A stretch of DNA of 64,000 bases from Escherichia coli. GTDB lineage: Bacteria > Pseudomonadota > Gammaproteobacteria > Enterobacterales > Enterobacteriaceae. The number at the start of each line of letters is the position of its first letter. The first letter of the stretch is position 1. Below the pieces are notes generated by a model. That model was not told the origin of the DNA. It searched no databases and saw only the letters and a list, made by a program, of their open reading frames with translations. Of this stretch, positions 26,704 to 29,636 are shown piece after piece. Position numbers and translations under genes: made by a program. The DNA is taken from assembly GCF_030384885.1 (NCBI RefSeq), contig NZ_CP128613.1; one strand, given 5' to 3'.

Positions 26704-26740
26704 GCCGGATGCGACGCCTGCGGCGTCTTATCCGGCGTAC
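26704..26740. repeat. REP element between rdgC and the islet
   Basis: gccggatgcgacgcctgcggcgtcttatccggcgtac matches the REP consensus. Confidence 0.8.
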
Positions 26741-26761: not shown

Positions 26762-27217
26762 TCATTCGCTACGGCGGGCAATAATTTTTAGCGCAGCAAT
26801 ATTATGCGTTTTACGCCGTAACTGATCCAACCGTCTCATCCCTATTCGCCTGTCAGCGGCACGCAGAATATTCACTAACCCCCATTTATCGCTGGTAAAT
26901 TGTTTCGTTAACAGCTCCGCTTTTGGGGTATCAATATATTCACGCAATAAATCAGAAATTGAACAAATATCCGTCAGATAAGGATACCAGCAAGTTTCAC
27001 CATGAAAATTACGCACTCCACCATTGCCTGCCATAAAGTCTTTTGGGTAATCCCAGATCACGTCTTTATCCAACGTGATCCAATAACGCGGTAAATCGGT
27101 GCTTCCACCATTTTGGCTGCGCATGGGATAACGGGTACAGTGAATTTGCAGGTTGATCGTTGGCGTCAGTAAGTCATAAATCTCCCTCTGTAACTTGCTC
27201 CAGGGGCGTTGTGTCAT
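26762..27217 (-). CDS. Hypothetical cytoplasmic protein, 151 aa, unassigned family
   Basis: [35 protein letters not shown]...; no signal peptide or TM segment; its ATG (27215-27217) overlaps the stop of the upstream ORF as ATGA. Confidence 0.6.
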
Positions 27218-29493
27218 TGTTTTTCCTCAAGCCGATTACGCGCTTCACTGCGAATTTGCCGCGTTGCCCCGGTTTTCACTAAATCACGTAACTGCGAAAG
27301 ATCGGGCTGATCGACAAATAAGATTAATGATGGATCCTCTTTTAACCACGCCGTTTTCACATCGGCAGCCAACTGTGGATTATTAATAGCCAGCGCCCGA
27401 TCCTGTGACTCAGTCAATGTCGTTAACAAAGAGGCTGGGGTATGTACATTGCGCAACGCCGTCTGCCGCAAATGATCATTGTGACTTTTCAGCAATCCGC
27501 ACCACCATTCATCATCTGATTTATCTTTTATCGTATCCAGCTCCGCAAAAATATCGCTTTCCTCATGATTCCAGCGGTGTAATCCTCTTTCACTTTGTCT
27601 ACGGGTGCTATTTTTCATACTGACAATAGACAACGCCCAGTCGGAGTTAAAACGATACTGTTGATCGAGTTTGTTGATAATTCCGGAGGGTAAATCTTTA
27701 TTATCAAATAACTGGTTTCGCATCCGATAGCGGTATTCAGCAGGTAAATAAACCAGTAAATCGATAGCATTATTAAGCATCTCTTCGTCAATAATACCAT
27801 TATCAATCAGCGCCAGCTGTACTTCGTAGGCTTGCTCTTGATCTTCTTGCCGTTTACTCATCATTAATTTTAAGGTGTGTTGCCATAATTGTTTCTTATA
27901 CTCCAGAGGTAACAATTTATCGCGTGCCAGCTCATACCAGATGCTGGGAATGTCATGCTGATTCAGTAGATAACTAATCACTTCCTTCGAGGTCAGATAA
28001 CGCATGCCGTCACGTAAGTTGTGCACATCTTCTTTTGCCAAAGTCAGTTGACGCGACTCCGGCAAAGCGACCAATAACGCCTTCACGATATTTTTATTTT
28101 CTTTATTATCCAGATACATTTGTTCTGCGATACGTTCAACATCCTCTGTCCTCAGGGTCGCTGACAGTTGGGTGATTTTTAGTTCAGTAAGCGTCCGGGC
28201 TAATGCTTGACGAACTTTCAGCGATTTATCTTTACTCAACAACACCGCTTGTTGTGCGGTTAAATCGGTTCCGGTAATTCTTTCGCGTAACTCCGGATCT
28301 TCGCTATTTATCAATTCATCAACCACTGCAGTTGGAACCAGCCAGGCGTAATCGTAATGGCTGATTAATGTCTTGCGCACACTGAGAAAAGGGCTTTGAC
28401 TTAACGACACAACAATATCAGGAGAAAGATTATCCTGTCTGGCCTGCTCCAGCTGTACGCTCTCGACGGGTACAGACATTAATTTTTTATTCACTTCGGC
28501 GGATATATTGCTGTTTTTAACCAGTCCTCTGGCAACAGCTTCATCTTTAATTAATTCATCGGTAAGCAAATGCATGTGTTGAGCAGGCCAGGACTGCGCC
28601 ATTGATTCACGCGTCTGGTCATCAGGGTGCTGTAACAATTGCAGCATAACGGCGGTTGACAAACTTTCTATATGAGTCAGAAAACGTGCCACCAGTGGAT
28701 CTTCATGCTTTATTTTATCCGCAAGGAAATTATCGAGTTTCCCCGTTTCAATCCATTGTAATTTCTCATTAATTTCAGAAGCAGCTTTATCTCGAAAAAG
28801 AGGTAAACCCTGAACGATATTGTCTACGACGCTATCATAGTCAGGATACGCATTGGAAATATTATCGGTTTCGATTTCACTATGATCATAAAGATTAGGC
28901 GTCACCAGTGAATAGGATTTTTGAATATTCTCGTCCCAGTTATATTCTTCACCGCTTTCATCTTCATTGATATAAAACTCAGCTTTGATGACCTCAAATT
29001 GCGTTGCTTTATCGGAAACAATAATGCCTCGCGCGCTAATTCCTTTCATCACTTCAAAGTTGTGATCATTATAATCAGCATAAACCAAACCTTTCGCTGT
29101 CATCTGACCTTTCACATACGCGAAATCATGATTAATAAAGTTGTCGACAATAACATTACCTAATACAATCAGATGACCATTACCTGACAGATAATCATCA
29201 TAATCGCCGGAAATCGTTAAATTACCGTTCACCACCAGTTTATTTTGATTGCTGAAGTTAGCGGGTAATGATAGGTCACCATTATGATAATACCAGCGGA
29301 TATTATCTTTTAGCATATAAGCAGCTTCCATACTATCGTTGGTTGCCGCTTTAACCACGTTGCGCTCATCTGCCGTCATAAGATGAAAGTCAGAGGTGAT
29401 AAGGTCCTCGCTACTGATCCACTCTATGGCACATGCATTGCCAGTCATAAAAAACACGACCATACAGATGACCAATATATTAATTCTATTCAT
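27214..29493 (-). CDS. Hypothetical exported repeat protein, ~759 aa, unassigned family
   Basis: Long uninterrupted ORF; ATG at 29491-29493 gives [22 protein letters not shown], a Sec-type signal with an AXA-like cleavage site (an in-frame GTG lies 3 codons upstream at 29502). Coding DNA is visibly AT-rich compared with neighbours. Confidence 0.8.
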
Positions 29494-29636
29494 AATCTTC
29501 ACTGATATTTATATCAACCTTGATGAATTATGAATATATCGGAAATCGAAAAAATCGCAGCAAAGGAAATATTATTATGGGTTAAAGAGAGGATATTTCA
29601 GAAAAATGCCCTCCCGTTCAAGGGGAAGGCGGGGAA

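What the first reader, a model, noticed from the sequence alone, without database searches (positions are those of the whole stretch)
26762..27217. 151-aa cytoplasmic ORF translationally coupled (ATGA) to the exported protein
The stop of the 759-aa ORF (TGA 27214-27216) overlaps the ATG of the next ORF (27215-27217). That arrangement is typical of stoichiometrically co-expressed partners such as chaperone-cargo or toxin-immunity pairs. The partner has no signal peptide, so the two products are predicted to sit in different compartments, which is unusual for a simple binary complex and hints at a secretion-chaperone or regulatory role. The partner sequence is unfamiliar to me.
Basis: partly seen in the sequence, partly recalled or inferred. 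Interest (0 to 1): 0.5.

Follow-up and report, generated by a model that had tools for sequence, protein, structure and literature searches.

The report
Mobile SF0329 gene, probable orphan immunity
The 151-codon reading frame is a real, intact E. coli accessory gene of the uncharacterised SF0329 family; its ATGA overlap with the exported protein's gene is genuine but ordinary, the two are not obligate partners, and elsewhere the gene sits among anti-toxin "immunity" genes.

Summary
On the minus strand the stop of the 759-aa gene (TGA, 27216-27214) overlaps the ATG (27217-27215) of a 151-aa ORF, with GAGG 7 nt upstream. The window is E. coli, between rdgC and ppnP.

**What the genes are**
- The 151-aa product is a full-length SF0329 protein (PF25753, NF049912). 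It is under strong purifying selection (dN/dS about 0.06).
- Its confident predicted fold matches no solved structure.
- The upstream product has a signal peptide, a beta-helix and an LRV/HEAT-like solenoid. "DUF2773" is only the last few repeats.

**Why they are not obligate partners**
- The pairing exists only in Escherichia.
- SF0329 persists without the big gene in E. albertii and in about 477 E. coli genomes.
- The big gene persists without SF0329 in Escherichia sp. E4930.
- Relatives of each gene in other taxa lack the other.

**Context elsewhere**
- SF0329 is a rare, low-GC, horizontally moved gene.
- In Bacteroidales it lies in recombinase-linked arrays with Imm51, Imm10, SUKH, YwqG/DUF1963 and DUF7716 genes.
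- It also lies beside restriction-modification genes, or alone after housekeeping genes, sometimes with the same 4-nt overlap.

**Other points**
- K-12's detected small protein YkiD is an in-frame deletion remnant of SF0329, so this start codon is used.
- The most likely role is an orphan immunity-type defence protein. This is inferred; no cognate toxin was found.
- Modest interest.

The parts
26762..27217 (-). SF0329-family gene, 151 aa, cytoplasmic, full length
   Evidence: ORF list. Pfam PF25753 E 5e-22. NCBIfam NF049912 93.9 bits against a cutoff of 60. RefSeq WP_000194192.1 'SF0329 family protein'. AlphaFold2 pLDDT 88.4. dN/dS 0.05-0.09.
27214..27217 (-). ATGA stop/start overlap (TGA of the 759-aa gene, ATG of SF0329)
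   Evidence: Read from the sequence. Kept in K-12-like, E. albertii and Escherichia sp. E4930 remnants.
27225..27228 (-). Shine-Dalgarno GAGG, 7 nt upstream of the SF0329 ATG, inside the end of the upstream gene
   Evidence: Sequence. The same motif precedes K-12 ykiD, whose product was detected.
27214..29493 (-). 759-aa exported protein gene (annotated DUF2773 domain-containing). Signal peptide residues 1-22, beta-helix about 68-176, LRV/HEAT-like alpha-solenoid about 186-758.
29428..29493 (-). Codons for the predicted Sec signal peptide [22 protein letters not shown]
   Evidence: Sequence. Helix 3-16 in the model. Signal-like N-termini in most relatives.
27217..27459 (-). DUF2773 region: the last helical repeats of the solenoid. 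This is the part that survives as the ykiA pseudogene in K-12-like strains.
29574..29601 (-). Promoter-like site upstream of the 759-aa gene. It lies in the ppnP-ykiA intergenic region whose promoter is activated by BglJ-RcsB in K-12.
   Evidence: Consensus scan only. ykiA promoter activation from PMC3950696. The correspondence of the exact site is inferred.
29608..29630 (-). Terminator-like hairpin after ppnP, marking the upstream end of the two-gene unit
26704..26737 (.). REP-type palindrome between the convergent ends of rdgC and SF0329, marking the downstream end of the unit
   Evidence: Sequence. Conserved in all Escherichia variants aligned. Identification as REP is from my own knowledge of E. 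coli REP sequences.

Best explanation
The 151-aa ORF is a genuine stand-alone gene of the SF0329 family. It encodes a small cytoplasmic alpha+beta protein with a fold not seen in solved structures.

In Escherichia it is the second gene of a low-GC, horizontally acquired two-gene operon inserted between ppnP and rdgC, transcribed from the ykiA promoter. It is translated by coupling or re-initiation at the ATGA junction, helped by its own GAGG.

The coupling reflects operon packing, not a specific partnership with the exported 759-aa beta-helix/LRV-solenoid protein. Each gene functions and is retained without the other.

By context, SF0329 most likely acts as an orphan immunity-type defence protein that protects the cytoplasm against a toxin delivered by competing bacteria.

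What is shown: gene identity, integrity, purifying selection, start-site use (through YkiD), independence from the neighbour, mobility, and residence in immunity-gene arrays. What is inferred: the immunity function itself and the cytoplasmic site of action.
For: **Identity and integrity:**

**Purifying selection:** dN/dS is 0.064 between E. coli and E. albertii and 0.061 between two lineages that both lack the big gene.

**Start-site use:** K-12 YkiD is SF0329 residues 1-10 plus 135-151. It has the same ATGA and Shine-Dalgarno sequence, and it was detected by SPA tag.

**Independence within Escherichia**
- E. coli genomes with at least 80% of SF0329: 920 of 5426. With the full 759-aa gene: 443.
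- E. albertii and Escherichia sp. MOD1 keep SF0329 with only scraps of the big gene.
- Escherichia sp. E4930 keeps an intact 759-aa gene (dN/dS 0.12-0.14) with SF0329 reduced to a 21-codon remnant.

**Independence elsewhere:** the big protein's relatives stand alone, and tblastn finds it next to SF0329 only in Escherichia.

**Mobility**
- Found in about 93 of 100,044 species genomes, spread over at least six phyla, at 50-65% identity.
- Gene GC is far below its flanks in several genomes.
- Recombinases lie nearby.

**Immunity-array context**
- L006/L007: tyrosine recombinase followed by a co-directional 34%-GC array with Imm10, Macro and DUF7716. This is the rAID architecture of Ross et al..
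- L022: DUF4240, then SF0329, then SMI1/KNR4.
- L064: DUF4304, Imm51, YwqG, DUF1963 and SMI1/KNR4.
- L003: SUKH-3 and Macro.
- DUF7716 is a predicted T6SS nuclease immunity protein. Polyimmunity loci are defined in PMC3482391.
Against: - No cognate toxin gene was found beside SF0329 in any of about 90 loci.
- Cross-phylum conservation is unusually high for a toxin-binding immunity protein: 21 invariant columns.
- Many occurrences are solitary or lie in restriction-modification or Abi islands rather than immunity arrays.
- PADLOC has no match, and Pfam matches only the uncharacterised SF0329 family, so neither gives a functional lead.
- Guilt by association in arrays is weak evidence.
- Within E. 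coli itself, every genome with the intact big gene also has SF0329 (443 against 443). A toxin-immunity pair would also produce that pattern.
Confidence: 0.5

Rival explanations
1. SF0329 is a stand-alone conflict or repair factor rather than a toxin-binding immunity protein. For example, it could be an enzyme or target-protecting protein acting on nucleic acids or on NAD/ADP-ribose-linked modifications, or a single-gene anti-phage or anti-mobile-element function. Its conservation would then come from a conserved substrate.
For: - Very high cross-phylum conservation with many invariant polar and aromatic residues and a basic C-terminal half.
- An in-frame fusion to an RNA 2'-phosphotransferase Tpt1/KptA domain in L083.
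- Macro-domain genes lie 1-4 genes away in Bacteroidales arrays carrying three different SF0329 alleles.
- Neighbours include EndoV, Ada/Ogt and AlkZ-like genes and type I R-M and AbiC genes.
- Frequent solitary occurrence.
Against: - The fusion is a single metagenome-assembled contig, and no other locus has KptA nearby.
- Neighbours in arrays are heterogeneous, with no conserved partner.
- There is no match to any defence model, no phage copies, and no fold or motif of a known enzyme.
Confidence: 0.3
2. The two genes are a small polyimmunity locus. The exported LRV/HEAT-type repeat protein would guard the periplasm and SF0329 the cytoplasm, each against a different incoming toxin, co-expressed from one H-NS-silenced, BglJ-RcsB-activated promoter.
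For: - HEAT-repeat proteins are listed among immunity protein types, and small two- or three-gene polyimmunity loci are described (PMC3482391).
- Both genes are low-GC and under purifying selection.
- They are lost independently, as expected for unrelated cassettes.
Against: - Relatives of the 759-aa protein were not seen in immunity arrays; their contexts are miscellaneous.
- A 759-aa beta-helix plus solenoid protein is atypical for an immunity protein.
- Nothing links it to any toxin.
Confidence: 0.1
3. Toxin-immunity pair: the 759-aa exported protein is a toxin or effector and SF0329 is its cognate immunity protein, made in fixed ratio through the ATGA coupling.
For: - ATGA coupling with the downstream small gene is the classic layout.
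- Within E. coli, SF0329 can occur without the big gene, but the intact big gene never occurs without SF0329 (443 against 920 genomes).
Against: - Escherichia sp. E4930 keeps an intact, selected 759-aa gene with SF0329 deleted.
- Relatives at 25-49% identity stand alone.
- The C-terminus is LRV-type helical repeats, not a toxin domain.
- An exported toxin and a cytoplasmic immunity protein would sit in different compartments.
- SF0329 is far more widespread than the big protein and is never paired with it outside Escherichia.
Confidence: 0.06
4. SF0329 is a dedicated cytoplasmic secretion chaperone or regulator of the exported 759-aa protein.
For: Operon partnership and opposite predicted compartments.
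Against: - The same independence data as above.
- The cargo has an ordinary Sec signal peptide and needs no special chaperone.
- SF0329 is conserved in phyla that lack the cargo.
- There is no DNA-binding or chaperone fold.
Confidence: 0.04

Closest known systems
SF0329 protein family (Pfam PF25753; NCBIfam NF049912)
   Same: Full-length match above the curated cutoff, with the same length and motifs ([37 protein letters not shown]). RefSeq already names this gene 'SF0329 family protein'.
   Different: Nothing. It is a member. The family has no assigned function, and no paper in the searched library mentions the SF0329 protein (the only text hit for that term is an unrelated rice genetics paper).
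Orphan immunity genes of polyimmunity loci and rAID/AID clusters (Zhang et al. 2012, PMC3482391; Ross et al. 2019, bioRxiv 471110)
   Same: Small cytoplasmic single-domain protein with patchy, horizontally transferred distribution and low GC. Relatives lie in co-directional arrays with Imm10, Imm51, SUKH/SMI1-KNR4, YwqG/DUF1963 and DUF7716 genes, some headed by a tyrosine recombinase.
   Different: SF0329 was not among the immunity families in the text of Zhang et al. that I searched. No cognate toxin is known. The E. coli copy is not in an array. Conservation is much higher than is typical for such families. Protection has not been tested.
E. coli K-12 ykiA pseudogene and small protein YkiD
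   Same: Same locus and same promoter region. ykiA is the C-terminal 342-bp remnant of the 759-aa gene. YkiD is an in-frame deletion derivative of SF0329 with the same ATGA start.
   Different: The window carries the intact ancestral genes, which only 443 of 5426 complete E. coli genomes have.
Leucine-rich repeat variant (LRV) / HEAT-like alpha-solenoid proteins (PDB 1LRV; Pfam LRV, LRV_2) with an N-terminal beta-helix
   Same: For the upstream partner: a profile hit to 1LRV (E 1e-12), LRV/LRV_2/HEAT_2 hits in family members, and a solenoid in the model.
Type II toxin-antitoxin or polymorphic toxin-immunity gene pairs with 4-nt overlaps
   Same: A small downstream gene overlapping the stop codon of the upstream gene.
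   Different: The upstream gene has no toxin domain, the pairing is not conserved, and either gene survives alone.

Membership tests
SF0329 family (PF25753 / NF049912) | Score above the curated whole-protein cutoff of the family model | tested here: met
   NCBIfam 93.9 bits against a cutoff of 60, E 1.3e-26. Pfam i-E 5.1e-22.
SF0329 family (PF25753 / NF049912) | Full-length single-domain protein of about 150-165 aa with the conserved family motifs | tested here: met
   Covers model positions 2-160 of 161. There are 21 invariant and 39 nearly invariant columns shared with 39 relatives.
Orphan immunity gene of polyimmunity / rAID loci | Lies in a tandem co-directional array with recognised immunity families | tested here: inconclusive
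   Met for relatives: L006/L007, L022, L064, L003 and L048. Not met for the E. coli copy, which has one unrelated neighbour. Many relatives are solitary.
Orphan immunity gene of polyimmunity / rAID loci | Array headed by a XerD-like tyrosine recombinase, with array GC of 41% or lower (criteria of Ross et al.) | tested here: inconclusive
   L006/L007: a Phage_integrase gene 5' of the array, array GC 0.34. The 44% identity criterion to the B. fragilis recombinase was not tested. No recombinase is present in the window.
Orphan immunity gene of polyimmunity / rAID loci | A cognate copy directly downstream of a toxin gene in at least some genomes | tested here: not met
   No toxin-like neighbour in about 90 loci. 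Large neighbours are housekeeping, R-M or recombinase genes. The sample is limited and Pfam coverage of neighbours was partial.
Orphan immunity gene of polyimmunity / rAID loci | Neutralises a toxin in co-expression or competition | not testable with these tools
   Needs an experiment.
Toxin-immunity pair with the upstream 759-aa gene | The upstream protein carries a toxin domain | tested here: not met
   Only DUF2773/LRV-type helical repeats run to the C-terminus. The model is beta-helix plus solenoid. No toxin family matched.
Toxin-immunity pair with the upstream 759-aa gene | The pairing is conserved wherever the toxin occurs, and the toxin is never kept without immunity | tested here: not met
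   Escherichia sp. E4930 has an intact 759-aa gene without SF0329. Relatives in L008, L009, L095, L096 and L097 lack SF0329.
Secretion chaperone or regulator of the exported neighbour | Co-occurrence with the cargo and dependence of the cargo on it | tested here: not met
   Co-occurrence is seen only in Escherichia, and each gene is retained alone under purifying selection. Dependence itself cannot be tested here.
Translationally coupled gene pair | Stop/start overlap with a ribosome-binding site inside the upstream gene | tested here: met
   ATGA at 27217-27214 and GAGG at 27228-27225.
Translationally coupled gene pair | Downstream translation depends on upstream translation | not testable with these tools
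   Only indirect evidence: the same start is used for YkiD in K-12. There the upstream gene is a pseudogene, so strict coupling is not required for initiation.
DUF2773 / LRV repeat proteins (the partner) | Match to PF10971 and to LRV-type repeats | tested here: met
   PF10971 E 7.5e-39 at residues 679-759. LRV/LRV_2 in 4-6 of 41 family members at E<=0.001 and in 14 at E<=0.1. 1LRV E 1.1e-12 with the family profile.

The most novel reading that the evidence does not exclude
SF0329 is not a one-toxin binder. It is a new-fold, broadly acting protective factor, either an enzyme or a target shield, possibly linked to RNA/DNA-end or ADP-ribose chemistry as hinted by the Tpt1/KptA fusion and nearby Macro genes. 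It would neutralise a whole class of cytoplasmic toxins or nucleic-acid damage. That would explain its 50-65% identity across at least six phyla despite its rarity. A corollary is that the in-frame mini-ORFs left in K-12 (YkiD) and in Escherichia sp. E4930, which both keep the C-terminal basic helix, retain some activity.
Probability: 0.15. Interest if true: 0.6.

Novelty: new member of a known kind. Interest (0 to 1): 0.3.

Why it matters
It removes a false lead: an ATGA overlap alone does not show that two proteins work together.

It explains two K-12 oddities. ykiA and the detected small protein YkiD are wreckage of a two-gene accessory operon that is intact in only about 8% of complete E. 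coli genomes.

It also gives a testable candidate role to a family that has none: an immunity-type defence gene that travels among gut Bacteroidales, Clostridia, Campylobacter, Leptospira and Escherichia. If confirmed, SF0329 would add a new fold and an unusually conserved member to the set of interbacterial defence genes.

Tried and rejected
**Searches that found nothing useful for SF0329**
- PADLOC and PHROGs: no significant match for either protein.
- PDB by sequence and by profile: nothing.
- Foldseek against AFDB50: only family members, a few of them labelled DUF4304. hhalign of the SF0329 profile against a true DUF4304 protein from the same Bacteroides array shows no relation (probability 0.06), so I dropped that link.
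- Phage genomes: no copies. Plasmids: only two, one of them a 1.2-Mb Escherichia record filed as a plasmid.
- Literature: SF0329 and DUF2773 are not discussed anywhere in the searched library.

**Searches for a partner or a toxin**
- Conserved neighbour across about 90 loci: none beyond lineage-specific synteny.
- Toxin genes among large neighbours: they turned out to be housekeeping genes, R-M subunits, MutS-like ATPases and recombinases.
- KptA next to SF0329 in other loci: none.
- Cassette ends around solitary copies: one 29-nt inverted-repeat pair in L021, nothing consistent elsewhere.

**Could not do**

Full report
**1. The observation**

The window is Escherichia coli chromosome. The gene order is sbcC-araJ-mak-rdgC, then two minus-strand ORFs, then ppnP-aroM-yaiA-aroL.

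- On the minus strand the bases A27217 T27216 G27215 A27214 form ATGA.
- The upstream ORF is 762 aa from a GTG, or 759 aa from the ATG at 29493, which is the RefSeq call. It stops at TGA 27216-27214.
- The 151-aa ORF (26762-27217) starts at ATG 27217-27215.
- GAGG (27228-27225) lies 7 nt upstream of that ATG.
- The upstream product begins with a typical Sec signal peptide ([22 protein letters not shown]|IEW). The 151-aa product has none.

The overlap is not rare, however: 4 of 37 same-strand neighbouring ORF pairs in this window share the same ATGA overlap.

**2. What the 151-aa ORF is**

- It is a full-length member of the SF0329 family. NCBIfam NF049912 scores 93.9 bits against a cutoff of 60, covering model positions 2-160 of 161. 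Pfam PF25753 gives E 5e-22.
- RefSeq annotates it as an SF0329 family protein. It is not a fragment of a longer gene.
- Forty relatives align end to end, with 21 invariant and 39 nearly invariant columns.
- AlphaFold2 gives a confident model (pLDDT 88.4): an N-terminal helix, a three-stranded sheet and four C-terminal helices.
- A sequence-profile search of the PDB is empty.
- Foldseek against AFDB50 finds only family members.
- Within Escherichia the gene is under strong purifying selection. Against E. albertii, dN/dS is 0.064 at dS 0.87.

**3. What the neighbour is**

- Only its last 81 residues match a Pfam family, DUF2773.
- A full HMMER scan of 1.8 billion representatives finds about 170 relatives. 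About 40 are full length at 20-35% identity, and most have signal-like N-termini.
- The AlphaFold2 model (pLDDT 90.9) shows a signal helix, a beta-helix at about residues 68-176, and an alpha-solenoid from about 186 to the C-terminus.
- The family profile hits the leucine-rich-repeat-variant structure 1LRV at E 1e-12. Family members hit the Pfam families LRV, LRV_2 and HEAT_2.
- There is no toxin-like domain. DUF2773 is simply the last few repeats.

**4. Are they partners?**

*Outside Escherichia they are never together.*
- tblastn with the 759-aa protein against all fetched loci finds it next to SF0329 only in Escherichia.
- About 90 SF0329 loci from 80 species share no conserved neighbour.
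- Five loci with relatives of the 759-aa protein have no SF0329: L008 at 49% identity, plus L009, L095, L096 and L097.

*Inside Escherichia the two genes are lost independently.*
- Of 5426 complete E. coli genomes, 443 have the whole locus, 443 have the full 759-aa gene, and 920 have at least 80% of SF0329.
- Some strains keep SF0329 with only a 342-bp tail of the big gene.
- E. albertii keeps SF0329 behind a big gene reduced to its first three codons and scraps of its tail.
- Conversely, Escherichia sp. E4930 keeps an intact 759-aa gene (73% identity, dN/dS 0.12-0.14). Its SF0329 is reduced to a 21-codon remnant.
- SF0329 remains under dN/dS of about 0.06 between two lineages that both lack the big gene.

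*Tight packing against an upstream gene is not specific to this pair.* In Clostridia, SF0329 overlaps by 4 nt, or nearly abuts, argD, a sensor kinase gene and gltX. It also follows isocitrate dehydrogenase and ada/ogt.

I conclude that the ATGA junction reflects operon packing of an acquired gene, not a dedicated two-protein system.

**5. Expression**

- The unit is low in GC (0.37-0.47 against about 0.51 for the flanks).
- It is bounded by the ppnP terminator plus a promoter-like site upstream and by a REP-type palindrome downstream.
- In K-12 the promoter in this intergenic region, named for ykiA, is activated by BglJ-RcsB (PMC3950696).
- Most E. coli, including K-12, carry two deletions. 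ykiA is the 342-bp tail of the big gene. The 27-aa YkiD is [10 protein letters not shown]|[17 protein letters not shown], that is SF0329 residues 1-10 joined in frame to 135-151 across a GTTAC(A/G)G microhomology. It still has the ATGA and GAGG.
- YkiD is listed with a new gene name in a study that detected 36 of 80 chromosomally SPA-tagged short ORFs in MG1655 by immunoblot (PMC6001520). This start site is therefore used in vivo.

**6. What SF0329 most likely does**

The family is rare. It was found in about 93 of 100,044 species genomes, spread over Escherichia, Leminorella, Photobacterium, Campylobacter, Bacteroidales, Clostridia, Leptospira, Deferribacteraceae and Spirochaetia. Identity to the E. 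coli protein is 50-65%. Gene GC is often far below the host's, for example 0.40 against 0.61.

Its contexts are those of conflict genes.

- *Immunity-gene arrays*
  - In two metagenome contigs (L006/L007), a tyrosine recombinase heads a co-directional 34%-GC array of small genes that includes Imm10, Macro, DUF7716 and SF0329. This is the architecture of recombinase-associated acquired interbacterial defence clusters (bioRxiv 471110).
  - In Parabacteroides distasonis the order is DUF4240, SF0329, SMI1/KNR4.
  - In Bacteroides sp. ET71 the array carries DUF4304, Imm51, YwqG, DUF1963 and SMI1/KNR4 genes.
  - In Paenibacillus, SUKH-3 and Macro genes are nearby.
  - DUF7716 is the predicted immunity partner of a Salmonella T6SS nuclease (PMC13224477).
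  - Such heterogeneous polyimmunity loci, often next to XerC/D recombinases, were defined by Zhang et al. (PMC3482391).
- *Defence islands and mobile elements*
  - Other copies lie beside type I R-M and AbiC genes with resolvases and integrases.
  - One copy is on a Photobacterium plasmid next to a recombinase.

The best-supported reading is an orphan immunity-type protein acting in the cytoplasm. I put this at about 0.5.

The weaknesses are these:
- No cognate toxin was found next to it anywhere.
- Its conservation is unusually high for a toxin binder.
- Many copies are solitary.

The main rival, at about 0.3, is a stand-alone protective or repair factor with a conserved substrate. The hints for it are one in-frame fusion to a Tpt1/KptA RNA 2'-phosphotransferase domain (a single contig, not seen elsewhere) and Macro genes 1-4 genes away in several arrays.

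**7. Comparison with what is known, and novelty**

- The gene is a member of a named but uncharacterised family. No paper in the searched library discusses it.
- It behaves like the orphan immunity genes of polyimmunity/rAID loci, but it fails the one context criterion that would clinch membership, a cognate toxin neighbour. The functional criterion cannot be tested here.
- It does not fit a toxin-immunity or chaperone-cargo pair with its neighbour.
- I rate it a new member of a known kind, of modest interest.
- The useful outputs are:
  - the demotion of the ATGA clue;
  - the explanation of ykiA and YkiD as remnants of this operon;
  - a concrete, testable role for SF0329.

Noticed in passing
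L013 1663-1746 (K-12-like E. coli); corresponds to window 26762-27217 with codons 11-134 deleted: The K-12 small protein YkiD (27 aa, listed among newly named small proteins in a study that detected SPA-tagged short ORFs) is an in-frame internal-deletion remnant of SF0329. The deletion lies between GTTAC(A/G)G microhomologies. The adjacent ykiA pseudogene is the 342-bp tail of the 759-aa gene.
   Followed up: yes
L010 7277-7342 (Escherichia sp. E4930): A second, independent in-frame remnant of SF0329 ([21 protein letters not shown]) also keeps the ATGA start and the C-terminal basic helix. Two in-frame survivors could be chance (about 1 in 9) or a sign that the tail peptide is still useful.
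   Followed up: partly
L083 2162-3199 (uncultured Bacilli MAG): A single ORF fuses SF0329 (Pfam E 1.2e-16) to an RNA 2'-phosphotransferase Tpt1/KptA domain (PF01885, E 2.7e-42). No other fetched locus has KptA nearby, so it may be a lost stop codon or an assembly error.
   Followed up: partly
L021 7827-7855 and 8471-8499: A 29-nt inverted repeat (79% complementary) brackets a solitary SF0329 gene whose GC is 0.37 in a 0.55-GC genome. It looks like the ends of a small mobile cassette. No comparable repeat was seen in three other solitary loci.
   Followed up: partly
L091, L004/L005/L018, L026, L066 (SF0329 gene against flanks): SF0329 gene GC is 0.36-0.43 in genomes whose flanks are 0.50-0.62, pointing to recent horizontal insertion of little more than the ORF itself.
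   Followed up: partly
L006 5394-5924, L007 6116-6673, L048 6604-6858, L064 9159-9635, L066 14931-15407, L068 1279-1503: Macro-domain genes lie 1-4 genes from SF0329 in Bacteroidales arrays that carry three different SF0329 alleles. This may be a linked sub-block or just a common array member.
   Followed up: partly
L014 1670-2119 (E. coli 21B8, cattle): This allele of SF0329 has a 1-nt indel near the 3' end that replaces the last 8 residues (…ALKNYCPP*, 149 aa).
   Followed up: no
L084, L093 (Eubacterium brachy / nodatum) and L098: SF0329 lies just downstream of type I restriction-modification genes (hsdM/hsdR) and, in L098, a putative AbiC gene, with resolvase and integrase genes nearby. This is a defence-island context rather than an immunity array.
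   Followed up: partly
L009 4194-7811 and L097 7807-9971: Two distant relatives of the 759-aa protein lie convergent with large Ser/Thr protein kinase genes (Pkinase+AAA_16; Pkinase+TPR). This is probably coincidence in kinase-rich genomes.
   Followed up: no
window 26704-26737: A REP-type palindrome (GCCGGATGCGACGCC…GGCGTCTTATCCGGC) sits between the convergent ends of rdgC and SF0329. It is conserved in all Escherichia variants of the locus.
   Followed up: no
L016 7800-8003 (E. albertii): The 759-aa gene is reduced to ATGAATAGGTAA (M-N-R-stop) plus scraps of its tail. The promoter region, the GGAGG and the ATGA in front of an intact SF0329 are kept.
   Followed up: partly
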